This document shows positions 22,511 to 63,594 of a stretch of DNA of 64,000 bases, piece after piece. Numbering within the stretch: the first letter of the stretch is position 1; every line of letters starts with the position of its first letter. The translations under genes were made by a program, and so were the position numbers. The stretch comes from a virus. Lineage: Duplodnaviria > Caudoviricetes. A model generated the notes under the pieces. That model did no database searches, was not told the DNA's origin, and was given only the letters and a program-made list of their open reading frames with translations. The DNA lies in IMG/VR virus record IMGVR_UViG_3300017764_000001; one strand, 5' to 3'.

Positions 22511-22512
22511 TA

Positions 22513-27935: not shown

Positions 27936-27940
27936 AGGGC

Positions 27941-27969
27941 TTGACAGGTTTGTTACATTACTATATAAT
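27941..27969 (+). promoter_or_regulatory. Consensus sigma70 promoter for the hli cluster
   Basis: TTGACA-N17-TATAAT. Confidence 0.85.
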
Positions 27970-27995
27970 ATGTAAAGATTCATTACATTAGGTAA

Positions 27996-36387: not shown

Positions 36388-36403
36388 GGAGAGGTAAAGA
36401 AAA

Positions 36404-43756: not shown

Positions 43757-43791
43757 TAATCCAAATAAATATACCGGGAGGCATTTCATAA

Positions 43792-47499: not shown

Positions 47500-47533
47500 T
47501 AATCTAAATACTATGAAGGAGGAACTAGTATAA

Positions 47534-49021
47534 ATGGCAAAGTTAAGAGTTGGATTTGGTTCTGATTTTAATATTACAGGACAAAAGGTAGGTCTTGGAA
47601 CCGCAAATCCAACTGCTCTTTTAGAAGTTGCCGAAACTGCCAAGGCAGATTTTAATATTACCGGTGTCACAACACTGACATCTTATGGTGGTTTTGTAGC
47701 ACAGAATCAAAATATTACAGAACCAACAACGATCAAGAGAACGATAAGTAAATCAGGAACTCTTGATAGTGTAAATGAAAGAGAAACTGGATTTACAGAA
47801 CTTGGTGGTGTTCATCACGGTGATGATCAATATTTCAATACACTTTCAGAAGATCTTGTCGTAGAAGACGGAAAGATTTTCAGTATTCATAATACTGAAA
47901 TGGTTGGTTCTACAACTATTGGTGAACAGGATCCACACACTCATGCATCACATGTCTCTGCAGGATCACTGGAACAAGTATCAGTCACCGGACACTTTTC
48001 TGTTCCTTGTGGTGGAATTAATGAAAGGCAAGAAACACTAATCGAAGGAACCGTAAGATTCAATGATGATTTGAATACACTTGAGTTCTTCAATGGAAAT
48101 GAATGGAGACAATTTACTTATAATCAAGGACAAAGTGGTCGTGCCGTTTTCTCTGGTGGTGAATCTGGTGGATCGAATACACAGATACAGGCAATTGATT
48201 ATTATAATATACACACTACTGGAAATGCACTTAATTTTGGTAATGCAACTATCACCGAATCAAGAAAAGCAGGGTGTGCTTCCGCAACTAGAGGATTATC
48301 TGGTGGATCTGATGATACAAGTAACGATAGTACTATTGATTATGTAACCATTGCATCAACAGGAGATGCAATTGATTTTGGAGATTTGTATAATGGTAGA
48401 GGCACATCTGCATCAATGTCATCATCGACTCGTGGACTTTGGGCAGCAGGAAGATCTCCAACTAATCAAGATACAATAGATTATGTAGAAATAGCAACTC
48501 TTGGAAATGCACTAGATTTTGGTGATACAACAGTTGCACGACAATGGTTGGCAGGTTGCTCTAGTTCAACAAGAGGAATTATTGCCGGAGGAGAATCTCC
48601 ATCCTTTGCGTCTCCAACTAGAACTTCAAGAATAGAATATATAACCATGGCATCAAAAGGTGATGCAATTTTATTTGGAGAGTTGACGGGTATTACTGGC
48701 AATCCTGGGGGTTGTTCTAATTCAACAAGAGGATTTTTTGGTGGTGGTGAGCCATCAGCACAGAGTAAGATAGATATGATTACAATTGCATCAACCGGAA
48801 ATGCCATTCGTTTTGGAGAACTAACTGTTGCCAGACTTACAGTAAATGGTGCTGGTAGTCAAACTCGTGGAACATTTTTAGGTGGACATTATAATTTGAA
48901 TGTAATTGATTACATCACAATGTCAACAGAGGGAGATGCAATAGATTTTGGAGACTTAACTATAGGTAGGTGGTCAGGTGCATCATTATCAGATTCTCAC
49001 GGTGGTTTAGGAGGTTTCTAA
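47534..49021 (+). CDS. Propeller-array protein 1 (intact fibre motif + 6-repeat propeller)
   Basis: MAKLRVGFGSDF; FSVPCGGINER...GTVRFNDDLNTLEFFNGNEW; repeats STRG..GG...IDY.TIAS.G.A.DFG; ends SDSHGGLGGF. Confidence 0.85.
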   Translation: MAKLRVGFGSDFNITGQKVGLGTANPTALLEVAETAKADFNITGVTTLTSYGGFVAQNQNITEPTTIKRTISKSGTLDSVNERETGFTELGGVHHGDDQYFNTLSEDLVVEDGKIFSIHNTEMVGSTTIGEQDPHTHASHVSAGSLEQVSVTGHFSVPCGGINERQETLIEGTVRFNDDLNTLEFFNGNEWRQFTYNQGQSGRAVFSGGESGGSNTQIQAIDYYNIHTTGNALNFGNATITESRKAGCASATRGLSGGSDDTSNDSTIDYVTIASTGDAIDFGDLYNGRGTSASMSSSTRGLWAAGRSPTNQDTIDYVEIATLGNALDFGDTTVARQWLAGCSSSTRGIIAGGESPSFASPTRTSRIEYITMASKGDAILFGELTGITGNPGGCSNSTRGFFGGGEPSAQSKIDMITIASTGNAIRFGELTVARLTVNGAGSQTRGTFLGGHYNLNVIDYITMSTEGDAIDFGDLTIGRWSGASLSDSHGGLGGF

Positions 49022-49022
49022 G

Positions 49023-51146
49023 ATGGCAAAAATAAGATTTGGTTACTCTGATGATTTCACCGCAAAGAATAGTGGTGTTGGTATTAATACCACCGATTCA
49101 CAGGAAAATTTAGATGTTGATGGTGTCGTAAAAGGTCAAGATCTAAAGGTCACCGGTATCTCATTACAAACTGGTTATGAAGGATTCCTGAGAGCAGATC
49201 ATCAGATTGCAGAGGATACATCTCTGAGTTTTGATCAAGGACCTGTTTCATCACTTTCTGGTGAGATTATTGTAGAAACTGGTAAAACTGTTACCGTCAA
49301 TGAGGTTGTCAAAGAGACTGCAGGAGTTGGTAATGGTTCTGGTGGTCAATGGAATGATCTGAACGGTAATTATGCTTTTAAGGCAAATGGTGATCCAACA
49401 TGGGATGGATCTGCATTTGTTTATGATGGCACTGGAGATTATCACAGTCTCAGTGGCGGAAATACAAGCACTTTTGAAGTAGGTTCTAGTAATTTTACAT
49501 TAGAACAATGGGTTTATATAACTGCAACATCTTCTATATGCAGTACATTTTTCTCTAAAGGAAATAATAACTCTGTTGGAACAGAATTTATGTCCCTACA
49601 GACTACGAATAATGGCACCACACCAGGATTTTTCTTTGGTTCTGGAAGTTCTCTTTTGGCAGGATCATCTGTAGGAACAGATGGGTGGCATCATTATGTG
49701 GTAACTCGTTCCGGTAATAATTTTACACTTTATGTTGATGGAACGTCAGTAGATACTGCTACTAGTAGTAGTTCTTTGGCATCTGGAATTACTGGTGGTG
49801 TTAATATTGGTGCTCAATCTTACAGTGTTTCTGCTGATGGTAGAAAATTAAATGGAAAAATTTCTATCACTCGTCTTTATGGTAGTAGAGTATTAACAGC
49901 AGCAGAAGTTACACTAAACTATAATGCCGGACATACTGCAACCACATCAGCAGTAGTAGCAACAGTAGACCTCAATGCGAACAATCCAAGTTCCTATCCT
50001 GGAACTCTCAGTGCTGTTGATACCACAGATACAACAATAGCAGGTGGAAGTCAGATTGGATCATTGAAAGTTTTCAATACTTTCACACCTCCAAGTGGTG
50101 ATACAAATCAGAGACCATCAAAACCAAAACCAGGTCAATTATATTATAACTATGACCTCAAGACCATTGAGTTTCATGATGGTTATGGTTGGAGACAAGT
50201 AGATTATACAACTACAAGTAGTCGTGCTGTATTTGCCGGTGGATATAATCCGGGACCATCATATGGTACAATATCAAATATGTCTTATGTAAATATTGCC
50301 TCAACTGGTAATGCATTAGATTTTGGTAGTTTGGTTGCTAATGCAAGAACTGATCACGGTGCTTTTTCAAGTTCGATTCGTGGTATATTCCATCAAAGTA
50401 TTGGAAGTCCGGGTACTGGAGAGAGTTTAGATTATGTTGCTCTGGCATCTGGAGGTCAAGCAGTTGATTTTGGTAATTTGAATACTGCCAGAACAAGATC
50501 TTCGGGATTATCGAGTTCTACTCGTGGACTTATTGCGGGTGGATATACACATCCTGCACGAATTTTCAAAATTGACTATGTAGAAATCGCTACGGTAGGA
50601 AATGCGTTAGAGTTTGGAGAATTAAGTAGTCATGGAATTCGTAATGCCCCTATCGCATCACCAACGAAAGGAGTTTTTGTTGGAGGCACTCCGGCATCTG
50701 CAACAAGAACAAACGAAATAACATTTGTAACAATAGCATCAAAAGGTAATTCTATTGATTTTGGAGGACGTGGTTTATTTTCTGGTTCATATAGTGCGGG
50801 TGGAGTATCTAATGGTGTTCGTGGCGTATATGCGGGAGGAGATACTGGTGGTGACGGTGGTGGTAAAGAAAAATCAATCGGATATTTAAATCTTGCGTCA
50901 ACAGGAAATGCACAATATTTTGGTGATCTTTCCATAGCAGGAAGTCATCATTGTGGAACTTCTAATCATATTCGTGGAATATTTAATTCTAGTGACCAAG
51001 TACCAAACACAGCAGTGTATACAAATGCCATTGAGTATATAACCATATCAACAGCAGGAAATTCTATAGATTTTGGTGATAACGTATTAAGTGCTGGCAG
51101 GAGAGCTTGTACATCAGACTCACACGGCGGACTAGGAGGTTTCTGA
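49023..51146 (+). CDS. Propeller-array protein 2 (LamG-like domain + intact motif + propeller)
   Basis: NFTLEQWVY...WHHYVVTRSG...LYVDG; PPSGDTNQRP...GQLYYN; ends SDSHGGLGGF. Confidence 0.85.
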   Translation: MAKIRFGYSDDFTAKNSGVGINTTDSQENLDVDGVVKGQDLKVTGISLQTGYEGFLRADHQIAEDTSLSFDQGPVSSLSGEIIVETGKTVTVNEVVKETAGVGNGSGGQWNDLNGNYAFKANGDPTWDGSAFVYDGTGDYHSLSGGNTSTFEVGSSNFTLEQWVYITATSSICSTFFSKGNNNSVGTEFMSLQTTNNGTTPGFFFGSGSSLLAGSSVGTDGWHHYVVTRSGNNFTLYVDGTSVDTATSSSSLASGITGGVNIGAQSYSVSADGRKLNGKISITRLYGSRVLTAAEVTLNYNAGHTATTSAVVATVDLNANNPSSYPGTLSAVDTTDTTIAGGSQIGSLKVFNTFTPPSGDTNQRPSKPKPGQLYYNYDLKTIEFHDGYGWRQVDYTTTSSRAVFAGGYNPGPSYGTISNMSYVNIASTGNALDFGSLVANARTDHGAFSSSIRGIFHQSIGSPGTGESLDYVALASGGQAVDFGNLNTARTRSSGLSSSTRGLIAGGYTHPARIFKIDYVEIATVGNALEFGELSSHGIRNAPIASPTKGVFVGGTPASATRTNEITFVTIASKGNSIDFGGRGLFSGSYSAGGVSNGVRGVYAGGDTGGDGGGKEKSIGYLNLASTGNAQYFGDLSIAGSHHCGTSNHIRGIFNSSDQVPNTAVYTNAIEYITISTAGNSIDFGDNVLSAGRRACTSDSHGGLGGF

Positions 51147-51177
51147 TGTCCGATAAATATAGGAAAGTAGTAGTATA

Positions 51178-52602
51178 ATGCCTAAAATAAGGATTGGTTT
51201 TTCAACTGATTTTAATTTAGTCAACGAACAGGTTGGTATCGGGACGACAAATCCTGACTCTAGGTTAAATGTGCCTGGACAAATTCTTGCCGACAATACT
51301 GCTGGTAGTGGAGGAGTATCAACATATAGAGAGTATCAAGGATTTCATCAGACACAGAGTAATGTCAGTCATAAGGTTACGATTGATGCAACCACTGCCG
51401 GTAATCTAAATTCTTTGTCTGGTGAACTAAGAATTGATGGAGATGTCACGATTGCACCAGATACATCAGTAACCAGTGGAAAGATAGATAGTCTAACTGC
51501 AACTGATAAGTTTGCTGTCCCTCTTCGTGATACAAATAGTAGAGATAATACACCGGAGGCAGGAACAACTAGATTTAATCAAGACTACGGAACACTTGAG
51601 TTCTTTGATGGTGCAAATTGGAAGACTGTAAATAAAACATCTAGAAGTGGTCGAGCCGTATTCTTTGGTGGATATATTGGTCCTTCTGGTACAACTCAAA
51701 CTAAGAGTATGGATTTGATTAATATTCCATCATTAGGTAATTCTGTATATTTTGGTGATTTGGGGTCTGTCAGAAATGACACTCAAGGTTGTTCTGATGG
51801 AACTCGTGGTCTATGTGCTGGTGGATATTCCAGTGCCGTAAATCAAAGAATTACTGATACGGAATATATTACATTAGCATCTGCCGGTAATGCAATTGAT
51901 TTTGGCAATTTGGATGAACCAAGAAATGGATTTGCCGGATGTTCTTCGTCAACTCGTGGATTATTTGCTGGTGGTGTAGACAATGCTGCTAACTCTCCAA
52001 CAGTATTGCAAATTGATTATTTTCAAATTTCAACTCTTGGAACGGCATTGGATTTTGGTGATTCGGCAACTTCAAGAACAGTGAGTGGTGGATTGCCTTC
52101 ATCTACTCGTGCAGTATGGGGTTCAGGAAGCAATAGAACAGGTGGAACAGTAACTGCAGTATCAATGATGGACTATTCTACATTTGCATCGAAGGGAAAT
52201 GCTGTTGAATTTGATAATGAAATTTTACCAAGACAAACTGGAAATGGATGTAGTAGTGGAACAAGAGGAGTGTTTGCCGGTGGTTATGGATCTCCTGCTC
52301 TTTATTCATCACCGGCAAATAAAGAAATGGCAAGAAAGATGTCTTATGTAACAATTGCATCAACAGGCAATGCAATTGAGTTTGGAGAACTATCTGCAAT
52401 TAAAACTTATGTTGGATCAAATTCAACAAGTACCAGAGGTATTTGGACGGGTGGATCTAATTACCCAACGCACTATGATGATATTGAATATGTTCAATTT
52501 TCATCATTAGGTAATGCTTTAGACTTTGGAAATCTTCATTCAACCAAAGGTTACATGACTGGATCAGCATCAGATTCTCACGGTGGTTTAGGAGGTTTCT
52601 AA
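51178..52602 (+). CDS. Propeller-array protein 3 (intact motif + propeller)
   Basis: MPKIRIGFSTDF; FAVPLRDTNSR...GTTRFNQDYGTLEFFDG; ends SDSHGGLGGF. Confidence 0.85.
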   Translation: MPKIRIGFSTDFNLVNEQVGIGTTNPDSRLNVPGQILADNTAGSGGVSTYREYQGFHQTQSNVSHKVTIDATTAGNLNSLSGELRIDGDVTIAPDTSVTSGKIDSLTATDKFAVPLRDTNSRDNTPEAGTTRFNQDYGTLEFFDGANWKTVNKTSRSGRAVFFGGYIGPSGTTQTKSMDLINIPSLGNSVYFGDLGSVRNDTQGCSDGTRGLCAGGYSSAVNQRITDTEYITLASAGNAIDFGNLDEPRNGFAGCSSSTRGLFAGGVDNAANSPTVLQIDYFQISTLGTALDFGDSATSRTVSGGLPSSTRAVWGSGSNRTGGTVTAVSMMDYSTFASKGNAVEFDNEILPRQTGNGCSSGTRGVFAGGYGSPALYSSPANKEMARKMSYVTIASTGNAIEFGELSAIKTYVGSNSTSTRGIWTGGSNYPTHYDDIEYVQFSSLGNALDFGNLHSTKGYMTGSASDSHGGLGGF

Positions 52603-52603
52603 G

Positions 52604-55600
52604 ATGGCAAATTTAAGAGTAGATAAGATTACAAGCACAGAAACCTTTGAAAGAACTGGTTCTGTTCAGTTTGGTGGTAGTGGAGATTATTTAAGTCTTG
52701 CAAGTAGTAGTGATTTTGGTTTTGGCACTGGAGATTTTACTATTGAAGCTTGGGTGTGTCCCAGACAAGTATCCAATAACCCATATATTTACGAACCCAG
52801 AACTAGTGCAGCTCAAAATGTAGCTGCTCCGATTATTTACATTTATAATAATAATATTATCTATGCATCAAACATGACGAATTTGATTACAGGTAAAGAA
52901 ATCAATGACAATACGTGGTTTCATGTTGCTGTTGTTCGTCATCAAAGTGTCACCACGTTATATGCTGATGGTGTAAATCAAGGATCAATAAATGATACTA
53001 GAGATTATATTGATTCCCCCGTATTGATAGGTATGAGAAAAAATACTACTGGTCAATCCTTGAATGGTTTTATTAGTAATCTCCGTGTGATTAAAGGTAA
53101 GGCAGTATATACAGCAGACTTCAAAGTTCCAATGAAAGAACTTGAAGCAACTCCTGAGACTGTATTATTATGTTGCCAATCAAAAACTTCTGCAGCTGCC
53201 GCAAAAGTATCACCAAACATCAGTGGAGTTAATGACGGAACAATATGGTCTGATGCTCTTGACGTAACCAATGGTGGTCGATTGAGACATGAAGATTATG
53301 GAGATTCATCAACACACAGCCCATCATTAATTTTTGATGGTGACACTTCAACTGATGCAGAAGGTCCCAACGGAACGAATAATAATATCATATATGATTT
53401 TCAAACTTTACTTGGAAAGAGTATTCCGGTCAGTAGTTCAATTAAAATTGTGATTGGTGGTAGTGATGGTAGAACACTCAAAGTAAATGGAAGTACTATT
53501 GGAACCAATTTGGGATCCACAGTACAGACAATTACTAGTCAATCTGCACTGAATAAGATTGAAGTTGTTGCTGAATCATCTTCAAGAAGTGGTCGATTGG
53601 CAGACATCAAAGTCGATGATGTTTCATTATTACTTCCTGTTCTTCCATTTGGTCGTAACATTAATGCATCAGAACTGTCACCAGGTCTTCTGACTGATAA
53701 AGTTATTGATGGTGGTAGCAGTGCCATCAAAGGATCTGTTGAGTTTGATGGTGACTCTGATGGTTTAGTTCTTTCCAAGTCCACAGATTTTCAATTTGGA
53801 ACAGGTGATTTTACGATTGAGGGGTGGTTCAATGTTTCAGATACTGGAGCAATCAGGACACTTTTTGATAGTAGAAATACCGACACTGTAACCCATGGAC
53901 TTTTTGTTGGAATTAATAGTAATGATAATCTCTATACCTATGGATTTCCTGGTGGCACCGGAGTTGTAAATTATGGAATTCCCAAACACGGAGAATGGCA
54001 TCACTTTGCAGTTGTAAGAAATGGAAGTGATGGGTATGTATTTCTCAATGGAGTAAAAGTTTCTGGAAGTATAGACACAAGTTCTACTAACTATATACAT
54101 CAAGGAGCAACAGTTGGTCAACCTTCAACTGTTTTTGCCGAAACTTTATATCGTTACAAAGGATTTATTTCAAACCTACGTATAGTCAAAGGCACTGCAC
54201 TCTATACACACGACTTCATTCCACCAACCAGAGAACTCAAAAAAGTTCCAGGCACTGTTCTTTTATGTTGCCAAGACCCTGATAATCCACTCACGGAAGC
54301 AACTGGAAAAACCATAACTCCTTATGGTGATCTCGGTGATGGTAGTCTCGGAGGAGAATTAGTCACAAATAATAGTGTATGGACTCTTGCTAAAGGTGGT
54401 AGTGGAGCTACCGATTGGACTGTTAGTAATAATGGCAGATCATTGGCAGGAACAACTGTTAGTGGTGGTTACATAAGAGCAACTTACACTTTATCAAAAG
54501 GTGACTATCTGGTTTCTCTTCGTTGGACTGGTGGTAATTTTGCAGTTCAGGATTCTACTGGATACATAGTCGCAACAGATGGAACTGATACCGAATTTTC
54601 TTCTTCTGAGGATGGTGCATATAGTTTCTACATGACTGCTACTACATCAGTTGTAATCACTGGTACATCTTGGAGCACTGCATATACGGTTGATGATATT
54701 AGTATCAAAAGAATTTATAGAAATAATGGTGCATCAAACTTCACACCACAAGTCGGTGATAATAGGAAAGTAACCTTTGATGGTGTCACCAAAATAAACT
54801 CAGATGCTTATTTCTATCTCCCAACTGGTGATACTATAACCAGAGATAGTCGCAGTGGTCGTGGAATAAGTCTAGGTGGTGCTCCAAGTCCATCAACAGC
54901 TAGAAGTGAGGTAATTGATTATATAACAATTTCCTCCATGGGAAATTCACAGGATTTTGGAAATTTAACTGTGGCAAGATCTTTAAATGGTGGGTGTTCA
55001 TCATCAACAAGAGGAATTTGTGCTGGTGGATATAATGAACCAGTATCAACACCTGGATATCTAGACACAATTGATTATATAACAATTGCAGCAACAGGAA
55101 ATGCAGTTGATTTTGGTAATTTAACTGTGGCTAGAAACGGATTATCAGGAACATCTAATTCAACCCGTGGTGTTTTTGCTGGAGGGTCAAAACCTCCCTC
55201 TGATACTAAAGAAAATGTTATTGACTACCTGACGATTGCATCATTAGGTAATGCAATTAATTTTGGAGATTTAAGTCAGGAGAAAAGAAATACGGGATGC
55301 ACTGGATCTGCAATAAGAGCTATCTGGGCAGGTGGTCAAGTGGGACCAACAATTACAACTGTGATGGATTATGTCACTATTGCATCCACTGGACATGCTG
55401 CTGATTTTGGTGATTTAACTGCCAATAGACGGCATTGTATAGGATCTAGTTCAAGCACTCGTGGTATATTTGCAGGAGGAACAACCAATCCAACATTAAT
55501 AGATATTATTGAATATATAACCATGTCATCTACAGGAAATTCTAATGACTTTGGTAATTTGACGGATGCTAGATCTGAATTTGGAGGACCGTCAAATAAA

Positions 55601-55765: not shown

Positions 55766-55787
55766 ATAATGAAAGAGGTAGTATAAT

Positions 55788-56849
55788 ATGTCAGAGATTC
55801 CAGCAGGTGCAATGAGATTTAACTCCGACTCGCAGAAGTTGGAGTATTGGAATGGCTCGGCATGGTTTCAGGTTCATACTGCAACACCAAATCTTGCAAC
55901 GGCAGGTGATAGAGAACCTGGTGCTCGTGGATTGTTTGCCGGTGGATATCAACCCGGTGCATATCAAAATGATATTGATTATATAAACATTGCATCAACG
56001 GGCAACACACAAGACTTTGGCACTTTAAACAATGCAACTACTGCCGGTGGTGGAGTAGGATCAAGAACTCGTGCATTATTTGCTGGTGGTTATATTGGAA
56101 CAGGTCCTAATGCTCTTGCTCAAATAGACACTGTAGTTTTTGCCAGCACTGGAAGTGCTTCAGACTTTGGTGATATGGCTTTGAATCATTTTAGAAGAGG
56201 ATCTGCAGGAAATGCAACTCGTGGATTATTTGCTGGTGGTGGAAATCCAAATACAACTGACCCACAGATAGATTATGTAACTATTGCAACAACAGGAACT
56301 GCAAATGATTATGGTGATTTAACTCAAACAAGATCCAGATTTGGTGGAGGAGGATCTTCAACTAGGAGTATATTTGCAGGAGGTTTTACCGGACCTAGCC
56401 CAACAAATGTTTATCAAGACATTATTGATTTTGTAAATACACCAACTCTTGGAAATGCACAAGACTTTGGTGATTTAACAAGAGGAAAATCTTGGACAGC
56501 AGTATGTTCAAATCCAACTAGACTGTTGATAGGTGGTGGTGCTATAGCACCCGATGGAAATACGGCAGTCAGTGAAATGGAATATATCACAATTTCAACA
56601 ACTGGTAATGCAGCAATGTTTGGGGACTTGAATCAAGTTGTCGATACTGGGGCATATGCAGGTTCCGGTTTGGCATCCTCGACTAGAGGAGTATTTAATA
56701 CAGGAATATTTAAAAATCCAGGTACAACTTATGATAATACACTTTATTATGTTGAAATTTCAACAACAGGAAAAGCAAGTGACTTTGGTGATCTAGATGG
56801 AAAGAGATATGGAGTTCAAACTTGCTCTAACGGTCACGGAGGGTTATAA
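55788..56849 (+). CDS. Propeller-array protein 5 (small; second half motif + propeller)
   Basis: MSEIPAGAMRFNSDSQKLEYWNGSAW; ends SNGHGGL. Confidence 0.85.
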   Translation: MSEIPAGAMRFNSDSQKLEYWNGSAWFQVHTATPNLATAGDREPGARGLFAGGYQPGAYQNDIDYINIASTGNTQDFGTLNNATTAGGGVGSRTRALFAGGYIGTGPNALAQIDTVVFASTGSASDFGDMALNHFRRGSAGNATRGLFAGGGNPNTTDPQIDYVTIATTGTANDYGDLTQTRSRFGGGGSSTRSIFAGGFTGPSPTNVYQDIIDFVNTPTLGNAQDFGDLTRGKSWTAVCSNPTRLLIGGGAIAPDGNTAVSEMEYITISTTGNAAMFGDLNQVVDTGAYAGSGLASSTRGVFNTGIFKNPGTTYDNTLYYVEISTTGKASDFGDLDGKRYGVQTCSNGHGGL

Positions 56850-56852
56850 GTC

Positions 56853-59267
56853 ATGGCAAAATTAAGAGTAGATAAGATTGCAGCACCAATAGTCAAGGAT
56901 GAATTTACTGGGTCAGTTCATTTTGATGGGACTGGGGATTATTTGAGTCTATCAAGTAATACTGATTTTGCAATGGGGACGGGTGATTTCACTGCAGAGT
57001 GCTTCATAAACACCACCAGTTTTAGTAACGCTGAGGGTGCATATAGTGAAAGAGTTTTTGACTCTAACACTGGGCAATTGGGAATTTATGTAACATCAGA
57101 TGGAAGTGGAACAATTGGTGCTTTGGTGGCAGGTACTGATCATAGAGGTACTAGTTCTCCAACATTGAGTGGATGGACGCACGTTGCTTTGACGAGAAGT
57201 GGATCGACTGTTAGAATATTTTTGAATGGAGTTTTAGATAGTTCTTTTACTAACAGTGGAAGTGTTGCATCCTCTGGAGACTTTTTGATAGGTGCAAGAG
57301 CGAGTGGACAGGGTGGATTCTTGGGGTACATCTCCAACTTTCGCATTTGTAAAGGACATGCAGTTTATACTGGAAATTTTACAGTACCAACCAGAGAACT
57401 AGAAGTTCATCTTGGTGCAAAAGGAGTCGTATTCCCTGCAGCAGATAACAGAACTGTTCTCTTAGCCTGCCAATCTTCTACTGATGCAACAGCAGAAGCA
57501 ACAGGAAGACACACAATCACTGTTAATGGTGATCCAACAGCAGCAGATGCAAACCCAGGATTATTCCGTAGAACTAATATATCTTCAACAACCACCGAGA
57601 ACACAGGGGCAGTATATTTTGATGGTAGTGGTGATTATTTGAGCCTTGCAACTAGCACTGATTTTTCTTTCTCTCATGATTTTACAGTTGAAACGTGGGC
57701 ATATCCAACTGATATTTCCTCCAAATATAATGCTATTTTTTCATTAAATGTAAGTGGGGAATGGAACTCGCAAGGCAAGGGTTTTGTATTATCAATTGGA
57801 AATTTACACTATGGCACAGGTTATAATACTGATTATACTACTGGTATTATTCCAATAAACACCTGGACACATCTTGCAGTAACAAGATTAAGTGGTGCCA
57901 TTAAAATTTTTGTTAATGGTGTTTTAGACCAAACAATAAATGACGGCAATTCGGATGATACATTTGCAAATGGAACAGGTAATACACCAGCTATTGGATT
58001 GTTTGATCAACAAGGTGGTACGCCGAGATTTTATTTTACTGGGTACATCTCTAACTTTCGTGTCTGTAAAGGACATGCAGTTTATACATCACAATTCATA
58101 CCACCAACCAGAGAACTAGAAGTCACTCCCGAAACTGTTTTCCTTGGGTTGTATGATGGAGAGAATATTTTTGCAGATAAGACTGAAAGACATATCATTG
58201 CAGCATATGGTGATCGCACAAGTTCTCCAACACCCACAGTAACTGATAGTCCTATTGGTATTACAACAAACTATCCACCAGTCACAAGAAATGTTGATCC
58301 TACTGCTGGCCCAATATTCCAAGGTGGAGCAGGATTTATTTCACAGAACTGGTTGACACTACCAAAGGGAACAACATTACAAAGATCTAGAGGTCGTGGA
58401 CTGTTTGGTGGAGGATATACAACAAGTTATACAAATGTGATAGAGTATATTGAAATTCATACTTTAGGAAATGGTCAAGACTTTGGAGATTTGTCAATTG
58501 GAAAAACCTTTGTTTCTGCTAATTCATCATCAACTCGATGTGTTTTTTCTGGAGGATATGCTCCTTCGGCAAGTAGATCAGAAATTGAATATGTAAACAT
58601 ATCAACATCTGGAAATGTACAGAATTTTGCTACTGCAGTATCAACTCAGCACTCAAGGGCAGCATGTGGTAATAATACACGGGGAATTATTGCATCTGGA
58701 TCATTATCTGATGCGATAGAATACATTACTTTTTCTACTCTTGGACAATCAAATGTTTTTGGAACATATACAATAGGCCAATATAGAGATGCTTCAGGAT
58801 GCTCTTCTCCAACAAGGGGTATTTTTGCCGGGGGATTTACTCCAGCAAACACAAATTCAATACAGTACGTTACTATTTCAACTATCGGAAACACACAAGA
58901 TTTTGGTGATTTATCAAGTGCAAGATATGGTACTGGAGCTACATCATCTGAAACTCGTGGTGTATTTTTTGGAGGAACTGCATTTCCGAGTGCAACTGGA
59001 TCTAATGTGATTGAATATATAACTATCTCTACACTTGGAAACACACAAGATTTTGGTGATTTATCTAGATCGACTTATAGATCACCATGCACTTCAAATG
59101 GAACTAGAGCTGTCATTTATTCTTCTAGTCCTACACCAAATTCTAATGCGATTGAATATGTAAATATTGCATCTCTAGGTAATGCTGCAGATTTTGGAGA
59201 TTCTTTAATATCAGCAAGAGAGTATTCTGATTCTGCAAGTTCTGATTCCCATGGTGGCATCTCATAA
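56853..59267 (+). CDS. Propeller-array protein 6 (two LamG-like domains, half motif, propeller)
   Basis: MAKLRVDKI; MGTGDFTAECFI and HDFTVETWAY; WLTLPKGTTLQR joined to the propeller. Confidence 0.85.
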   Translation: MAKLRVDKIAAPIVKDEFTGSVHFDGTGDYLSLSSNTDFAMGTGDFTAECFINTTSFSNAEGAYSERVFDSNTGQLGIYVTSDGSGTIGALVAGTDHRGTSSPTLSGWTHVALTRSGSTVRIFLNGVLDSSFTNSGSVASSGDFLIGARASGQGGFLGYISNFRICKGHAVYTGNFTVPTRELEVHLGAKGVVFPAADNRTVLLACQSSTDATAEATGRHTITVNGDPTAADANPGLFRRTNISSTTTENTGAVYFDGSGDYLSLATSTDFSFSHDFTVETWAYPTDISSKYNAIFSLNVSGEWNSQGKGFVLSIGNLHYGTGYNTDYTTGIIPINTWTHLAVTRLSGAIKIFVNGVLDQTINDGNSDDTFANGTGNTPAIGLFDQQGGTPRFYFTGYISNFRVCKGHAVYTSQFIPPTRELEVTPETVFLGLYDGENIFADKTERHIIAAYGDRTSSPTPTVTDSPIGITTNYPPVTRNVDPTAGPIFQGGAGFISQNWLTLPKGTTLQRSRGRGLFGGGYTTSYTNVIEYIEIHTLGNGQDFGDLSIGKTFVSANSSSTRCVFSGGYAPSASRSEIEYVNISTSGNVQNFATAVSTQHSRAACGNNTRGIIASGSLSDAIEYITFSTLGQSNVFGTYTIGQYRDASGCSSPTRGIFAGGFTPANTNSIQYVTISTIGNTQDFGDLSSARYGTGATSSETRGVFFGGTAFPSATGSNVIEYITISTLGNTQDFGDLSRSTYRSPCTSNGTRAVIYSSSPTPNSNAIEYVNIASLGNAADFGDSLISAREYSDSASSDSHGGIS

Positions 59268-59288
59268 ATATGGTAGAGGTATAAAGAT

Positions 59289-60299
59289 ATGAGCAATCTT
59301 CCCCCATCAAGAATCCCAAGAGGTGCAATAAGATTTAATACTGATAGTAACAAACCAGAACTCTGGGATGGCTCACAGTGGGCAGAGTTTCAGTTAAGCA
59401 CACCGAATCTTGGTAGGGCAGTTGATACTCAACCTGGTGCTCGTGGCATTTTTGCAGGAGGGTCTCCCACAACTGGAGGAGATACTATTGAATATGTAAA
59501 TATTTCATCAACGGGAGATGCAATTGATTTTGGTAATTTACTTGCCACCAAAAAATATGTGGCAGGATGTTCATCATCAACTCGTGGAATAAGTGCTGGT
59601 GGTGAACCAGGAACAATTGATGTAATTGAATTTGTTACGATTGCATCAACAGGAGATGCAGTTGATTTTGGTAATTTAAATAATGGTACTACATATATCA
59701 GTGGATGTAGCAGCGAAACAAGAGGAATATTTGCTGGAGGAAAACAACCGGGATTCACAAACCAGATTCAATATATAACAATCGCATCAACAGGTAATGC
59801 AAATGATTTTGGTGATTTGACTCAAGCGAGGGGCAATATTGGTGCTGTTTCTAGTCCTATGAGAGGTGTATTCCAGGGTGGATACACACCAACTAGACAG
59901 AATACAATTGATTTTATTACTATTGCAACAATTGGAAATGCACAGGACTTTGGTGATTTGACTGGATCAAATGGCAATAATGGTGGAAATCAATCGGGGA
60001 GCACCACCAGAGGTTTCTTTGTGGGTGGTCAACCAGAAACAAATCAAATACAGTATATTACAATTCCAACAGGAGGAAATTCTGTTTTCTTTGGAGAGAG
60101 GACTATCTCCAAAGAATATTCTAATTGCACTTCTAACAAAATTAGACTTGTTGCTGGTGGAGGACAAACACCGGGTACTACAAATACAATTGAGTATTTT
60201 ATAATATCAACAGAAGGTAATGCAGTAGATTTCGGAGATTTAAATACTGATCAACATCTTTCTGGATCTTGTTTTTCTAATGCTCACGGAGGTCTATAA
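59289..60299 (+). CDS. Propeller-array protein 7 (small; second half motif + propeller)
   Basis: IPRGAIRFNTDSNKPELWDGSQW; six repeats; ends SNAHGGL. Confidence 0.85.
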   Translation: MSNLPPSRIPRGAIRFNTDSNKPELWDGSQWAEFQLSTPNLGRAVDTQPGARGIFAGGSPTTGGDTIEYVNISSTGDAIDFGNLLATKKYVAGCSSSTRGISAGGEPGTIDVIEFVTIASTGDAVDFGNLNNGTTYISGCSSETRGIFAGGKQPGFTNQIQYITIASTGNANDFGDLTQARGNIGAVSSPMRGVFQGGYTPTRQNTIDFITIATIGNAQDFGDLTGSNGNNGGNQSGSTTRGFFVGGQPETNQIQYITIPTGGNSVFFGERTISKEYSNCTSNKIRLVAGGGQTPGTTNTIEYFIISTEGNAVDFGDLNTDQHLSGSCFSNAHGGL

Positions 60300-62488
60300 T
60301 GGGAATATTACGCACCGATAAAGTTTCAGGGTTAGAGAAGGAGAAAAGACAGAATCCAAACTTAGTCGTTAATGGTGACTTTAGTGATTCTTCAATTGCC
60401 GGTTGGACTGCATATAATGCCGTTGCAAGTTATGATAGTGGTGCCGGTGGAAGAATTAAAGTTGATGATAGTGCATCAGCAGGTGGATGGAGTAATGCTG
60501 CCTATGTAATCAATACAGAACCCGGAGCATCATATAGATTTGAAGTTAGAGCTTCGGCAACTGATAGTGATACTCAATTTGTTGGATATTATCAAGGAAC
60601 TTATGATACTGCCGGGACTGCACCAACGGTTTATTCATCAGAAATCACCGTTAATCCCTCTGTTCATTATTTTGATCTTATAGCAACGGGTAGCACTGTT
60701 ACCCTATTGTTGATTGCCAATGGTTCTGGAGTTGTATATTTTGATGATATTTCATTCAGAAAGACTGATGGAAACTCAATCGGAGGATCTGTTCATTTTG
60801 ATGGTAATGATCATTTATCTATTGGTAATTCAGGAGATTTTAATTTTCTTCACAACGGTGCAACTGATTGGACTGCAGAATTCTGGGCAAAAATGCCCAG
60901 TGTAACTCGGGGGCAAGTTTTCGGCACCGGAGCAAGTAGTGCTCAAACAGGGTTTAGTCTCACTCTTATGTCTGCTGCTGATAATCAAAGTGATGAACCA
61001 GGTGTTTTTGCGATGTTTGGTAGAGGGGCAGCAGGAAACTATAGATATTGGGGAGTAAGTAATGGTCTTTCAATAAATACATGGCATCATATTGCGGCAG
61101 TATTTAAGTCCAGTGATAAGACATTAGCATTGTATATCGATGGAAGAGAAGTAGATAACGATAGTGGAACGGAAAATGGAACTTTTGGTAGTGGAAATTA
61201 TTCAACCTCTAATAGTTCATATGCATTTATAGTTGGAAAAAATACACATTCTAGTACATTTTTCAAGGGTTACATATCTAATTTGAGGGTTGTTGCTGGA
61301 CGTAGACTTTACACATCAGATTTTACACCACCAGTTCATGCACTAGAACCAATTAATGGAACTAGAATTCTTTGTTGTAATAATCCGGATTCTGTTACTG
61401 CCGTGGATAGTGCTTTGATTGGAACTGCTCATATCAACACATCCTCCGGAAATCCACAAAATTCCACAAAAAATCCAGGTTTTACCAGAGACTTCACATA
61501 CGGCACAGAGTTTAGGGGTGTCACAACATTTGATACGCAAGGATATTTTGTTCCACCATCAGGTACGACAGAACAAAGAGGCAGAGGTCGTGGATTTTTT
61601 GCAGGGGGAGGAACTACCCCTAATTACACAAATGCAATTGATTTTATTACAATTTCATCTAGTGGAAATGCACAAGATTTTGGTGATTTGACACAAGAAA
61701 AACAATCTCTTGGTGGGACAGCAAATTCTACAAGAGGTATATTTGCAAGTGGATATAATACTCCAGTATTTCCTGCTACTGGTAATAATACTGATAGAAT
61801 AGAATATATAACAACTGCAACAACAGGAAACGCACTAGATTTTGGTAATTTAGATTCCGCAATAAGATATGCTTCTTGTGCCGCTAATTCAACAAGAGGT
61901 TTAATTGCTGGAGGATACTATCCATCTTATATTGATAGAATTGAATATATTACTATCGCATCTCTAGGAGATGCACAAACTTTTGGCACATTGACTGCAT
62001 CTGCCACCGCAACTGATAAAGCAGGTTTATCTTCTCCAACTAGAGCACTATTTGCTGGGGGAGAAAATGGTAGTGGTAATATGACTCTCACAGATTATGT
62101 GACTATTGCATCAACTGGCAATGCTCAAGATTTTGGTGACTTGACAGCAGCACGTAGAAGAGCAGCATCGGCATCAAGTGGAACTAGAGGATTAGTTGCC
62201 AATGGTTACAATGGATCTGCATATGTAAATACCATCGATTATGTGACCATTGCATCAACAGGAAATGCACAAGACTTTGGTGATACATCACAATCTAGAA
62301 GTTCTTCAAAAGGACAAGTTTCCTCAACAATCAGAGGAGTTTTTGGTAGTGGAGCAACGCCAAATCTTACAAATACCATCGATTATGTGACCATTGCATC
62401 AACTGGTAATGCATCAGATTTTGGTGATACAAATGGATCTCTTTTTGAGCAAGCAGGTTGTTCAGATTCCCATGGTGGTCTCTCATAA
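60299..62488 (+). CDS. Propeller-array protein 8 (CBM-like + LamG-like, half motif, propeller)
   Basis: MGILRTDKV; NLVVNGDFS...YFDDISF; DWTAEFW...WHHIAAV; YFVPPSGTTEQR joined to the propeller. Confidence 0.85.
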   Translation: MGILRTDKVSGLEKEKRQNPNLVVNGDFSDSSIAGWTAYNAVASYDSGAGGRIKVDDSASAGGWSNAAYVINTEPGASYRFEVRASATDSDTQFVGYYQGTYDTAGTAPTVYSSEITVNPSVHYFDLIATGSTVTLLLIANGSGVVYFDDISFRKTDGNSIGGSVHFDGNDHLSIGNSGDFNFLHNGATDWTAEFWAKMPSVTRGQVFGTGASSAQTGFSLTLMSAADNQSDEPGVFAMFGRGAAGNYRYWGVSNGLSINTWHHIAAVFKSSDKTLALYIDGREVDNDSGTENGTFGSGNYSTSNSSYAFIVGKNTHSSTFFKGYISNLRVVAGRRLYTSDFTPPVHALEPINGTRILCCNNPDSVTAVDSALIGTAHINTSSGNPQNSTKNPGFTRDFTYGTEFRGVTTFDTQGYFVPPSGTTEQRGRGRGFFAGGGTTPNYTNAIDFITISSSGNAQDFGDLTQEKQSLGGTANSTRGIFASGYNTPVFPATGNNTDRIEYITTATTGNALDFGNLDSAIRYASCAANSTRGLIAGGYYPSYIDRIEYITIASLGDAQTFGTLTASATATDKAGLSSPTRALFAGGENGSGNMTLTDYVTIASTGNAQDFGDLTAARRRAASASSGTRGLVANGYNGSAYVNTIDYVTIASTGNAQDFGDTSQSRSSSKGQVSSTIRGVFGSGATPNLTNTIDYVTIASTGNASDFGDTNGSLFEQAGCSDSHGGLS

Positions 62489-62509
62489 ATATGGTAGAGG
62501 TATAAAGAT

Positions 62510-63535
62510 ATGAGTCTCCCCCCATCAGAAGTGCCACAAGGTGCAATCAGATTTAATACCGACTCCCAGAGGTTAGAGTTTTATGCTCAGGGGGAATGGT
62601 GGATTATGTCTACTGATACTCCTAATCTTGGAACGAGTGCTGACTCAACTCCTGGTGCTCGTGGATTATTTGGTGGTGGTCACGGACCTTCACCAACTAA
62701 CGAAGTTAACGAAATAGAATATATCAACATTGCATCAACAGGTAATTCGGTAGACTTTGGTGATCTTCAACAAACAAGACAGGCACTTAGTTCTCTTGGA
62801 TCATCTACAAGAGGATTTTGGGTAGGAGGAAGAGATGCGCCAGCTAATTTTGATATTATAGAGTTTGTAACTTTTAGTTCATTAGGAGATAATACAGATT
62901 TTGGTAATCTTTCTTCTGCAAAACAAGGACCTTTTGGACTTTCAAATGCTACTCGTGGAATATCTGGTGGTGGTAGTTTTACTAACACTGTTGATTATTT
63001 TACCATGGCATCAACAGGAACTGTAGCAACATTTGGTACTCTCCAACCAACTGGAAAAGGAACTTATCAATCAGCATGTATGACTCCTGTAAGGGGTGTT
63101 TATCAACAATCTTTGGGTGCAAACCCATATCCAGGAAATACATATTTGGGTGGTTGCATCATTGCATCACTAGGAGATTTTCAGGATTTTGGTGAGTTAT
63201 CACAACAAAGAGCAAATTCTGCTAGTCTCTCAAATGCTACTCGTGGAATATTTGCTGGTGGATATCAACCACTCACATCCTCAATTGAATATATGGAAAT
63301 TTCGTCCGGAGGAAAGGCATCAAAATTTGGTGATTTAAGTAATAACAGAAAAGAATTAAATGGAAATTGTACATCCCCAACTCGTGGAGTCATAGCTGGT
63401 GGATTAGCAGATTCACATTTTAATCTTATTGAGTATGTTAATATTCAAACACAGGGCGATGCAGTGGATTTTGGTGATTTGCTTAATCCAAGAATGTATA
63501 AGTCAGGAATATCTAATGCACACGGAGGGTTGTAA
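62510..63535 (+). CDS. Propeller-array protein 9 (small; second half motif + propeller)
   Basis: VPQGAIRFNTDSQRLEFYAQGEW; six repeats; ends SNAHGGL. Confidence 0.85.
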   Translation: MSLPPSEVPQGAIRFNTDSQRLEFYAQGEWWIMSTDTPNLGTSADSTPGARGLFGGGHGPSPTNEVNEIEYINIASTGNSVDFGDLQQTRQALSSLGSSTRGFWVGGRDAPANFDIIEFVTFSSLGDNTDFGNLSSAKQGPFGLSNATRGISGGGSFTNTVDYFTMASTGTVATFGTLQPTGKGTYQSACMTPVRGVYQQSLGANPYPGNTYLGGCIIASLGDFQDFGELSQQRANSASLSNATRGIFAGGYQPLTSSIEYMEISSGGKASKFGDLSNNRKELNGNCTSPTRGVIAGGLADSHFNLIEYVNIQTQGDAVDFGDLLNPRMYKSGISNAHGGL

Positions 63536-63594
63536 AAACCCACATATTATACTATACTAAATACGGTAGTTATTACACTATAGATTGACCTGAT

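What the first reader, a model, noticed from the sequence alone, without database searches (positions are those of the whole stretch)
47534..63535. Tandem array of nine paralogous six-bladed Kelch-like propeller proteins next to the tail-fibre genes
Seen: nine consecutive genes, about 16 kb, all end in a roughly 300-aa domain built from ~48-aa repeats (consensus S.STRG.F.GG-[variable loop]-I(D/E)Y.TIASTGNA.DFG.L-[variable]) and close with SxxHGG(L/I). I counted six repeats in proteins 7 and 9. Scaffold residues are conserved while the loops after GG and after DFGxL differ in almost every blade. Established: GG-containing ~45-50-aa repeats (Kelch family) fold as beta-propellers whose variable loops form one binding face. 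Inference: a phage-encoded repertoire of diversified binding modules, about 54 blades if all nine have six, probably virion-displayed receptor-binding or surface-sensing appendages. I cannot name a described family for it.
Basis: partly seen in the sequence, partly recalled or inferred. Interest (0 to 1): 0.85.

Follow-up and report, generated by a model that had tools for sequence, protein, structure and literature searches.

The report
Kelch-fold propeller gene array in cyanophage
A marine T4-like cyanophage carries nine adjacent genes (more lie beyond the window) whose products each end in a six-bladed Kelch-type propeller from a very large, unnamed viral protein family. They look like exchangeable binding heads on tail-fibre-like stalks, so they are probably host-recognition parts, but nobody has yet shown them in a virus particle.

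Summary
Nine + strand genes (47534-63535) each end in a ~290-aa domain of six ~47-aa repeats, 54 blades in all.

- **Fold:** AlphaFold2 models gene 7 as a six-bladed, four-stranded propeller (pLDDT 87.8). Its nearest solved folds are BTB-Kelch domains (Z 35 against about 20 for other propellers).
- **Family:** no Pfam model matches. The family is large (12,058 clusters at 50% identity), unnamed and almost absent from deposited phage genomes.
- **Variation:** the two variable loops lie on one face (entropy 2.47 vs 1.10 bits; dN/dS about 0.6 vs 0.2).
- **Array size:** the array is larger than reported. After a four-gene cassette (helical orphan, GT-A-like transferase, Thr-rich protein, sulfotransferase) a tenth propeller gene follows. 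A related contig has 9+4+9.
- **Conserved order:** propeller(s), then the helical orphan, usually with the transferase-like and Thr-rich genes, recurs across diverse viral contigs.
- **Domain exchange:** gene 1 orthologues keep the N-terminal 205 aa at 91-94% identity, while most have a propeller only 42-47% identical.
- **Expression signals:** late-promoter-like boxes precede genes 1, 3, 5, 7 and 9.

Best reading (0.55): virion-borne, probably trimeric, swappable adhesins. Virion presence and the ligand are untested.

The scan's earlier notes concern this same genome, not other DNA.

The parts
34048..47499 (+). Three giant upstream structural genes (779, 2450 and 1235 aa) of tail-fibre / baseplate type.
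   Evidence: PHROG hits to tail fiber protein, baseplate wedge initiator/subunit and virion structural protein. An ATAAATA box lies 27 nt before the 1235-aa gene.
47504..47510 (+). CTAAATA late-promoter-like box, 30 nt upstream of gene 1.
47534..49021 (+). Gene 1 (495 aa): conserved N-terminal stalk of about 205 aa, an R-F-N...W hairpin, then a six-blade propeller.
   Evidence: In the ten closest orthologues residues 1-205 stay 91-94% identical while the propeller is 42-47% identical. The trimer model of residues 1-210 passed against its controls.
49023..51146 (+). Gene 2 (707 aa): N-terminal stalk, a LamG domain, then the propeller. It is translationally coupled to gene 1.
   Evidence: Pfam Laminin_G_3 3e-17. 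The stop and start are 1 nt apart, with the AGGAGG ribosome-binding site inside gene 1's last codons.
51178..52602 (+). Gene 3 (474 aa): stalk plus propeller, preceded by an ATAAATA box at 51153.
52604..55765 (+). Gene 4 (1053 aa): two LamG domains plus the propeller, coupled to gene 3.
   Evidence: Pfam Laminin_G_3 7e-25, two stretches. The junction is 92% identical to the gene 1/2 junction (D14).
55788..56849 (+). Gene 5 (353 aa): hairpin plus propeller only, with an ATAAATA box at 55762.
56853..59267 (+). Gene 6 (804 aa): two LamG domains plus the propeller, coupled to gene 5.
   Evidence: Pfam Laminin_G_3 5e-36.
59289..60299 (+). Gene 7 (336 aa): hairpin plus propeller. This is the protein that was modelled. 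An ATAAATA box lies at 59264.
   Evidence: AF2 pLDDT 87.8, pTM 0.81, six blades of four strands. Kelch domains are the top matches.
60299..62488 (+). Gene 8 (729 aa): CBM_4_9, LamG, then the propeller. Its start overlaps gene 7's stop.
   Evidence: Pfam CBM_4_9 4e-8 and Laminin_G_3 4e-14.
62510..63535 (+). Gene 9 (341 aa): hairpin plus propeller, with an ATAAATA box at 62485.
   Evidence: The junction is 95% identical to the gene 6/7 junction (D16).
63557..63563 (+). CTAAATA box 38 nt before the next gene.
63595..63999 (+). Start of the conserved helical orphan 'C' (308 aa in full, phrog_1409). It is the first gene of the four-gene cassette that separates the two blocks of propeller genes.
   Evidence: It directly follows propeller genes in most related viral loci.

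Best explanation
The nine genes are late-expressed structural genes of a T4-like cyanomyovirus. They encode a set of adhesins (receptor-binding or surface-binding proteins) that ride on the virion.

Each protein has an N-terminal part that fixes it to the particle:
- Genes 1-3 have a stalk of about 200 aa, probably trimeric and tail-fibre-like.
- Genes 5, 7 and 9 have a short R-F-N...W hairpin.
- Genes 2, 4, 6 and 8 add LamG/CBM lectin-like domains.

Each also has a C-terminal six-bladed Kelch-fold propeller. One face of the propeller, built from the loop after G-G and the loop after D-F-G-D-L, is the variable ligand-binding surface.

Diversity arises in two ways. Ancient duplication gave paralogues 31-49% identical. 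Recombination then swaps whole propellers onto conserved stalks, at the stalk/propeller boundary and at conserved gene junctions.

The downstream conserved helical protein may help assembly, as fibre chaperones do. The GT-A-like transferase and the sulfotransferase may modify a partner glycoprotein.

Shown here: the fold, the blade count, the variable face, the domain swapping, the array's extension and the conserved gene order.

Inferred: late expression, trimer formation, virion location, the ligand, and the roles of the neighbouring genes.
For: Fold:
- AF2 pLDDT 87.8, six blades of four strands.
- Foldseek against KLHL12/Keap1 Kelch domains gives E about 1e-16, TM 0.84 by target, rmsd 2.6-2.8.
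- VIA-align gives Z 35.7/35.0/34.7 (rmsd 2.1-2.2 over 273-276 aa) for Kelch domains. YWTD, NHL, sialidase and fucose-lectin propellers score about 16-21.

Variable face:
- In 64 family members the two variable loops have mean entropy 2.47 bits. The other two loops have 1.10 and the strands 1.38 (p = 2e-12). Insertions and deletions fall mostly in these two loops, above all the one after G-G.
- In close orthologues, substitutions are about 3-fold enriched in those loops.
- Pairwise dN/dS is 0.53-0.65 in the loops, 0.21-0.25 in the scaffold and 0.20-0.24 in the stalk.

Pattern typical of receptor-binding proteins:
- In 96% of 113 gene 1 orthologues the N-terminal 200 aa are more conserved than the propeller. 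The ten closest are 91-94% identical there against 42-47% in the propeller, with a sharp break at residues 205-210.
- Mosaic dS values show that the two parts have separate histories.
- Positional orthologues in a related contig are 44-69% identical, while the flanking gene is 95% identical.

Structural context:
- Tail-fibre and baseplate genes lie directly upstream.
- The LamG parts match PHROGs named baseplate wedge subunit or virion structural protein.
- In an unrelated lineage (L061) the same module sits between head and tail/baseplate-like genes.

Expression signals:
- ATAAATA lies 25-26 nt before the ATG of genes 3, 5, 7 and 9 and 27 nt before the fibre gene. CTAAATA lies 30 nt before gene 1.
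- There are 12 ATAAATA on the + strand and none on the - strand.

Stalk trimer:
- The complex model of three copies of residues 1-210 supports binding. The score is 0.56 against a best control of 0.00. That mark was reached by 20 of 30 known homo-pairs and 1 of 23 single chains.
- The three runs share at least 56% of contacts. The partner's pLDDT is only 48-50, so the fold itself is uncertain.

Precedent: trimeric staphylococcal phage receptor-binding proteins carry a beta-propeller platform that binds wall teichoic acid (PMC7048315, PMC6795507). A Kelch-propeller protein was found by mass spectrometry in phage CBB virions (PMC5259590).
Against: - There is no proteomic, imaging or binding evidence for any member of this family. 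No cultured phage with virion data carries it: tblastn of 50,697 phage records found only a 33%-identical fragment in S-SKS1.
- dN/dS in the loops stays below 1, so positive selection is not shown.
- The promoter boxes are consensus matches only. Their total count in the window is not above chance; only their placement is striking.
- The stalk folds poorly as a monomer (pLDDT 46.7), and the trimer model has low fold confidence.
- Eighteen or more different adhesins on one particle would be unusual.
- Kelch domains in eukaryotic viruses act inside the cell.
Confidence: 0.55

Rival explanations
1. The proteins are virion decorations that bind something other than the infection receptor, such as marine gels, particles, mucus-like polymers or non-host surfaces. 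They would keep the phage where hosts are, as proposed for Ig-like Hoc-type decorations. The array would be a repertoire for environmental adhesion, not host range.
For: The evidence is the same as for a virion location. In addition, fused lectin-like LamG and CBM_4_9 domains suggest glycan binding in general. The very large copy number (9+9 in a related contig) is hard to fit onto a six-fold baseplate as primary receptor binders. The identical array recurs unchanged in seawater samples from 12 studies, which does not look like a fast arms race within this lineage.
Against: Whole-propeller swapping between close relatives is the classic signature of host-range determinants. The genes sit directly behind the tail fibres, not the head genes. 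No data distinguish the ligands.
Confidence: 0.15
2. The proteins are not in the virion. They are intracellular binders that capture host proteins, for example defence or takeover targets, as BTB-Kelch proteins of poxviruses do. The paralogue array would reflect an arms race with host factors.
For: The closest solved folds are substrate adaptors that bind peptides on the equivalent face. Poxvirus Kelch proteins appear among the viral structural matches. Hypervariable tandem paralogues also occur among counter-defence genes (own knowledge).
Against: There is no BTB or other adaptor domain. The fusion partners are instead LamG and CBM_4_9 domains and tail-fibre-like N-termini. Late-type promoter boxes are shared with the fibre gene. 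The module lies inside the structural gene block in a distant lineage. The N-terminal region is conserved and predicted to self-associate, like a fibre stem.
Confidence: 0.12
3. The propellers are enzymes carried on the virion, such as glycosidases, lyases or esterases that degrade a host surface polymer. The array would then be a set of depolymerases, like the multi-tailspike phages.
For: Six-bladed propellers include sialidases and lactonases, which appear at Z about 16-17. Tandem arrays of depolymerase genes are known in Klebsiella and Escherichia phages (own knowledge).
Against: All invariant and nearly invariant positions repeat in every blade and are scaffold residues (R, G-G, Y/F, T-G-N, D-F-G). 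No blade-specific conserved polar cluster marks a single active site. Kelch domains score about twice as high as any enzyme propeller. No Pfam, NCBI-type or PDB sequence match to an enzyme was found.
Confidence: 0.08

Closest known systems
Kelch-repeat beta-propeller domains (BTB-Kelch proteins KLHL12, KLHL17, Keap1; Plasmodium K13)
   Same: Both have six blades of four antiparallel strands and repeats of about 47 aa with a hydrophobic stretch ending in G-G, a Tyr and a later aromatic residue. The alignment is colinear over 273-281 residues at rmsd 2.1-2.8 (Z 33-36). The variable loops after G-G and between blades correspond to the B-C and D-A loops that form the Kelch ligand face. That correspondence is an inference from the colinear alignment and the known Kelch topology.
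   Different: No Kelch Pfam model matches even at E 0.1, and identity is 10-16%. Phe replaces the signature Trp. Two further motifs are conserved in every blade (T/S-R-G and A-S-T-G-N-A), as is a family-specific C-terminal S-x-S-H-G-G-L. There is no BTB/BACK partner. The partners here are fibre-like stalks and LamG and CBM domains.
Trimeric staphylococcal phage receptor-binding proteins with a propeller 'platform' (phi11 Gp45 / 80alpha gp61, P68 tail fibre)
   Same: Both combine an N-terminal stem that anchors a trimer to the baseplate with one beta-propeller per chain. In those phages the propeller is proposed to bind a cell-wall glycan (PMC7048315, PMC6795507). Here a stalk is predicted to self-associate and is followed by a propeller.
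   Different: Those propellers have five blades, are not of Kelch type, and are followed by tower domains. Each of those phages has one such gene, not an array. No sequence similarity was found.
Multi-adhesin phages with tandem tailspike or fibre genes (e.g. CBA120, Klebsiella PhiK64-1, RaK2-like jumbo phages) and Kelch-propeller proteins of jumbo phages (CBB_552)
   Same: Several different binding proteins are encoded side by side near the tail genes. Conserved N-terminal attachment parts carry divergent C-terminal heads (own knowledge). CBB_552, a Kelch-type propeller protein, was found in virions by mass spectrometry (PMC5259590).
   Different: The heads there are mostly beta-helical depolymerases. 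Here all heads share one propeller fold and belong to one sequence family. The copy number (9 plus more; 18 in a relative) and the fixed link to the helical orphan and the GT-A-like gene have not been described.
Host recognition cluster of marine T4-like cyano- and pelagimyophages
   Same: Both are a large hypervariable island in the structural region that holds tail fibres together with glycosyltransferases (PMC7029224). This window's fibre genes, array and transferase cassette fit that description.
   Different: That work does not describe a propeller family or its arrays. It reads the glycosyltransferases as modifiers of the host's O-chain.

Membership tests
Kelch-repeat superfamily | Five to seven tandem repeats of about 44-56 residues. 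| tested here: met
   Six repeats of 44-57 aa in each of the nine proteins.
Kelch-repeat superfamily | Signature residues in each repeat: a hydrophobic run followed by G-G, then a spaced Tyr and Trp. | tested here: inconclusive
   The hydrophobic run with G-G and the Tyr (I-D/E-Y) are present in most blades. The second aromatic residue is Phe (D-F-G), not Trp.
Kelch-repeat superfamily | Match to a curated Kelch sequence model (Pfam Kelch_1 to Kelch_6). | tested here: not met
   No Kelch family is listed for any of the nine proteins at E up to 0.1. The PDB profile search gave no Kelch chain.
Kelch-repeat superfamily | Six-bladed propeller of four-stranded blades whose nearest structural neighbours are Kelch domains. 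| tested here: met
   AF2 model with pLDDT 87.8. Foldseek E about 1e-16. VIA-align Z 35 for Kelch domains against about 20 for other six-bladed propellers.
Kelch-repeat superfamily | Ring closure by a C-terminal strand that joins the first blade. | tested here: inconclusive
   The model ends with a single strand (residues 327-330) after six sets of three strands that begin at residue 52. The tail sequence also mimics the start of a repeat. Model coordinates could not be inspected.
Phage receptor-binding / tail-fibre proteins | Encoded in the late structural module beside tail or baseplate genes. | tested here: met
   The genes lie directly downstream of genes with tail-fibre and baseplate PHROG hits. 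The same holds in a distant lineage. Late-type boxes are present, but their function is inferred.
Phage receptor-binding / tail-fibre proteins | A conserved N-terminal attachment part with an exchangeable C-terminal binding part. | tested here: met
   Among gene 1 orthologues the ten closest keep residues 1-205 at 91-94% identity while the propeller is 42-47% identical. The break is at residues 205-210. The contrast is weaker or absent for the LamG-bearing genes.
Phage receptor-binding / tail-fibre proteins | Homo-oligomeric (usually trimeric) stem. | tested here: inconclusive
   The three-copy model passed (0.56 against a best control of 0.00), but with a fold pLDDT of about 50. The monomer model is unreliable.
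Phage receptor-binding / tail-fibre proteins | Physical presence in the virion and binding to a host surface receptor. | not testable with these tools
   This needs virion mass spectrometry, cryo-ET and adsorption assays.

The most novel reading that the evidence does not exclude
The gene set 'Kelch-fold propeller(s), helical orphan, GT-A-like transferase, Thr-rich protein (with a sulfotransferase in some)' is one widespread, undescribed adhesion apparatus of uncultured tailed phages. The transferases would build a glycosylated or sulfated, mucin-like component. A variable number of trimeric propeller adhesins, expanded to about 18 genes in this cyanophage lineage, would give a single virion a combinatorial binding repertoire that is reshuffled by cassette exchange.
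Probability: 0.2. Interest if true: 0.85.

Novelty: new variant of a known kind. Interest (0 to 1): 0.66.

Why it matters
Host recognition by marine cyanophages is poorly understood, and most genes in their 'host recognition cluster' are unnamed.

This work puts a fold, a domain logic (conserved stalk plus swappable Kelch-type head) and a conserved gene partnership on a family of about 12,000 sequence clusters. That family has no Pfam model and is essentially missing from cultured phages.

If the proteins are virion adhesins, they would be:
- a major and testable determinant of host range in ocean viruses;
- a natural library of binding scaffolds built on one stable fold;
- a marker for finding host-recognition modules in viral metagenomes.

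The fixed link to a glycosyltransferase-like gene and, in the cyanophage-like arrays and a few other loci, a sulfotransferase also raises the question of whether virion proteins of marine phages are glycosylated.

Tried and rejected
- **Stalk monomer model:** the AF2 monomer of the gene 1 stalk (residues 1-210) gave pLDDT 46.7. That is too poor for a fold search, so none was run.
- **Sequence searches of the propeller:** the Pfam scan of all nine proteins gave no match to the propeller. PHROGs gave only weak hits to phrog_19111, function unknown. The PDB sequence profile search gave nothing meaningful.
- **Deposited phage genomes:** megablast of the array against 50,697 phage records found no match. 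tblastn of gene 7 found only S-SKS1 at 33% identity. tblastn of a member from a GC-50% contig found no match.
- **Species genomes:** the scan of 185,579 genomes returned one small MAG contig. Only one peptide pattern, from the N-terminal hairpin, was used, so this says little about cellular genomes.
- **Pelagibacter phage HTVC027P:** the region around its transferase homologue does not show the same module in its annotation.
- **Laid sequencing runs:** all four laid runs were contigs. RNA-library contigs match pieces of the array exactly, but this cannot prove transcription. The many 'joints' and loose ends sit at the conserved D-F-G motif and most likely come from paralogues or relatives.
- **Other signals:** sigma-70-type promoters are not enriched (61 found, 58.5 expected), no intergenic terminators were seen, and there is no Rfam family.
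- **Diversity-generating retroelement:** rejected as the source of variation. No near-identical template/variable repeat pair exists in the array; the only high-identity repeats are two gene junctions.
- **'Fibre motif split across large+small pairs':** promoter boxes and translational coupling instead group the genes as small-then-large units (1-2, 3-4, 5-6, 7-8). The large proteins simply lack the hairpin. Trans-complementation was not tested.
- **Positive selection:** not shown; loop dN/dS is 0.5-0.65.
Full report
**What the window is.** The window carries psbA, psbD, purM, gnd and zwf, a block of sugar-nucleotide genes, and giant fibre and baseplate genes. Its nearest deposited relatives are Synechococcus phages Bellamy and S-SM2, at about 81% nucleotide identity in the metabolic region. 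It is therefore a T4-like cyanomyovirus. The contig that carries gene 1 is about 217 kb. No whole genome is held for it.

**The observation.** Nine + strand ORFs of 495, 707, 474, 1053, 353, 804, 336, 729 and 341 aa fill 47534-63535 with almost no spacing.
- The last 19-23 residues imitate the start of a seventh repeat and end in S-x-S/A-H-G-G-L/I.
- The periodicity is also visible in the DNA, at 141-156 nt and 60-75% identity.
- Minus-strand ORFs are short (100-132 aa) and lie inside these genes. No Rfam family is present and sigma-70 promoters are not enriched.

**Fold.** I aligned 64 short family members (A1) and modelled gene 7 with AlphaFold2.
- The model has mean pLDDT 87.8 and pTM 0.81. 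It shows 24 strands arranged as six four-stranded blades after a small N-terminal hairpin.
- Foldseek against the PDB puts Kelch domains of KLHL12, Keap1 and Plasmodium K13 first (E about 1e-16, TM 0.84 by target, rmsd 2.6-2.8, 10-16% identity). Swiss-Prot models give the same answer.
- An aligner that does not depend on Foldseek gives Z 35.7, 35.0 and 34.7 for KLHL17, KLHL12 and Keap1 (rmsd 2.1-2.2 over 273-276 residues). YWTD, NHL, sialidase and fucose-lectin propellers score about 16-21.

The domain is therefore Kelch-type specifically, not just 'a propeller'. Even so, no Pfam Kelch model matches at E 0.1, and no PDB chain matches by sequence. At the sequence level the family is undescribed. 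PHROGs gives only weak matches to phrog_19111, whose function is unknown.

**Which parts vary.**
- Across the 64 members, the loop after G-G and the loop after D-F-G-D-L have mean entropy 2.47 bits. The two tight turns (S-T-R-G and T-G-N-A) have 1.10 and the strands 1.38 (p = 2e-12). Insertions and deletions fall mostly in these two loops, above all the one after G-G.
- In a four-strand meander, alternate loops lie on the same face, so the variable loops share one face.
- The model aligns colinearly with Keap1 residues 325-609, and in Kelch repeats the G-G ends strand B. The variable loops therefore correspond to the B-C and D-A loops that form the Kelch ligand face. This last step is inference; I could not inspect coordinates.
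- In three close orthologues of gene 1 (76-84% identical propellers), substitutions are about 3-fold enriched in these loops.
- Nei-Gojobori dN/dS is 0.53-0.65 in the loops, 0.21-0.25 in the scaffold and 0.20-0.24 in the stalk. Constraint is relaxed or partly diversifying, but dN/dS does not exceed 1.

**Domain swapping.**
- A search with residues 1-200 of gene 1 found 790 relatives.
- In 96% of 113 full-length orthologues the stalk is more conserved than the propeller. The ten closest are 91-94% identical over residues 1-205 but only 42-47% in the propeller, about the same as between paralogues. The break at residues 205-210 is abrupt.
- Other orthologues show the reverse mosaic (stalk 74%, propeller 83%), and dS differs between the two parts (0.70 vs 0.24-0.34). 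Whole propellers are therefore exchanged on a conserved stalk.
- Within the window the paralogues are 31-49% identical. Positional orthologues in a related contig are 44-69% identical, with genes 6 and 8 in swapped order, while the flanking gene is 95% identical.
- The LamG-bearing N-termini are themselves variable.

**Gene organisation.**
- ATAAATA lies 25-26 nt upstream of the ATG of genes 3, 5, 7 and 9, overlapping the previous stop codon. It also lies 27 nt upstream of the 1235-aa fibre gene. CTAAATA lies 30 nt before gene 1 and 38 nt before the gene after the array.
- All 12 ATAAATA in the window are on the + strand. These resemble T4-type late promoters (own knowledge). Their number is not above chance, so only their placement counts.
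- Genes 2, 4, 6 and 8 start 0-3 nt after the preceding stop. For genes 2 and 4 the AGGAGG ribosome-binding site lies inside the preceding gene's last codons, which explains the extra G-G-F tail on genes 1 and 3. Gene 2 ends in the same G-G-F/AGGAGG sequence, although gene 3 starts 31 nt further on.
- The array thus reads as two-gene units, small then large.
- Two junctions are 92% and 95% identical over 55-59 nt, against 60-70% in the gene bodies.

**The array is larger than reported, and it has fixed partners.**
- A metagenome contig identical to the window continues with four genes: a 308-aa helical orphan (phrog_1409), a 240-aa protein (phrog_1574), a 258-aa Thr-rich protein and a sulfotransferase (Pfam Sulfotransfer_3, 6e-17). 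A tenth propeller gene then follows.
- The 240-aa protein looks like a GT-A transferase on two grounds. The ESM Atlas features point to nucleotide-diphospho-sugar transferase clusters, which is a lead only. It also has a D-A-D motif.
- A related IMG/VR contig has 9 propeller genes, the same four genes, then 9 more.
- More than 513 IMG/VR loci encode relatives. Copy numbers among the 79 fetched loci range from 1 to 13.
- In nearly all loci with room downstream, the order is propeller(s), helical orphan, transferase-like gene, then the small Thr-rich/T protein. This includes phages of GC 50-57%.
- In one such lineage the module sits between major-head/virion genes and baseplate/fibre-like genes.

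**Family size and occurrence.**
- The family comprises 12,058 clusters at 50% identity (4,780 at E <= 1e-30), many with two to five propellers in one chain. All named members are 'hypothetical'.
- Deposited phage genomes almost entirely lack it.
- The identical array occurs in seawater and virome data sets from 12 studies. Pieces of it occur in two RNA libraries, which does not prove transcription.

**Stalk.** As a monomer the gene 1 stalk models poorly (pLDDT 46.7). Three copies gave a model that supports binding.
- The score is 0.56 against a best control of 0.00. That mark was reached by 20 of 30 known homo-pairs and 1 of 23 single chains.
- The runs agree in at least 56% of contacts, and the partner's pLDDT is 48-50.
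- Contacts run along residues 13-48, 104-116 and 141-197, including the hairpin.
- This is suggestive only: the fold confidence is low and my own alignment was used.

**Interpretation.** The following features together match the pattern of phage receptor-binding proteins:
- the position behind the fibre genes;
- late-type boxes shared with a fibre gene;
- a conserved stalk that probably self-associates;
- heads that are swapped as units;
- one variable face on the head;
- fused LamG and CBM_4_9 modules.

Precedents are trimeric staphylococcal phage receptor-binding proteins with a propeller platform (PMC7048315, PMC6795507) and a Kelch-propeller protein found in CBB virions (PMC5259590). The region also fits the 'host recognition cluster' of marine T4-like phages, which holds fibres and glycosyltransferases (PMC7029224).

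I put 0.55 on virion-borne host-binding adhesins. The alternatives are:
- environmental adhesion by the same virion proteins (0.15);
- intracellular host-protein binders (0.12);
- virion enzymes (0.08). This last is disfavoured because every conserved position repeats in all blades, with no blade-specific polar cluster.

The roles of the helical orphan (assembly helper?) and of the two transferases (modification of the Thr-rich protein or of the adhesins?) are guesses.

**Novelty.** The fold, phage Kelch proteins and modular receptor-binding proteins are all known. The new elements are:
- this sequence family, which is large, unnamed and essentially uncultured;
- its expansion into arrays of 9+ (18 in a relative);
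- the stalk/propeller exchange;
- the conserved partnership with the orphan and the transferase-like gene.

I found no paper that describes any of these.

Noticed in passing
window 63595-63999 and L080:11086-14393: A four-gene cassette splits the propeller array: a 308-aa helical orphan (phrog_1409), a 240-aa GT-A-like protein (phrog_1574, with a D-A-D motif), a 258-aa Thr-rich protein, and a 263-aa sulfotransferase (Pfam Sulfotransfer_3, with a P-R-S-G-S-T loop). The first three follow propeller genes in many unrelated viral contigs.
   Followed up: partly
window 48979-49037, 51104-51162 and 52560-52618: Genes 1, 2 and 3 end in G-L-G-G-F because the AGGAGG ribosome-binding site lies inside their last codons. 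After genes 1 and 3 it serves the coupled next gene, and those two junctions are 92% identical over 59 nt.
   Followed up: yes
window 59239-59293 and 62460-62514: The gene 6/7 and 8/9 junctions are 95% identical over 55 nt. Each junction holds the stop codon, the ATAAATA box, the ribosome-binding site and the start codon. The gene bodies are only 60-70% identical. This could reflect a recombination site or a regulatory constraint.
   Followed up: partly
P0243-P0390; IMG/VR loci such as L011:9494-11410: Many family members carry two to five propeller domains in one polypeptide. The common three-gene sets in other phages are about 400 aa, about 320 aa and a double propeller of about 620-650 aa.
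   Followed up: no
window 36404-43756: The 2450-aa upstream protein has a Pfam Bactofilin match (3e-21, residues 1142-1244) inside a long repeat region. This probably reflects a beta-helical fibre shaft rather than a cytoskeletal protein.
   Followed up: no
window 14169-28000: A long run of + strand genes includes two nucleotide-sugar epimerase-like genes and an aminotransferase-like gene (PHROG hits). It forms a sugar-biosynthesis block upstream of psbA. A link to the transferase cassette was not examined.
   Followed up: no
window 33620-33991: An HNH endonuclease gene lies between purM and the first giant structural gene, with a CTAAATA box 27 nt upstream.
   Followed up: no
window 43792-47499 (residues about 50-70), genes 1-3, 5, 7, 9 and P0122: A short motif pair recurs: P-x-G-x-T-x-x-R, then G-x-I-R-F/Y-N ... 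L-E-x-W/F-x-G-x-x-W. It occurs at the N-terminus of the 1235-aa fibre protein, before the propellers of genes 1-3, 5, 7 and 9, and in the tenth gene. The large genes 4, 6 and 8 keep only the first half.
   Followed up: partly
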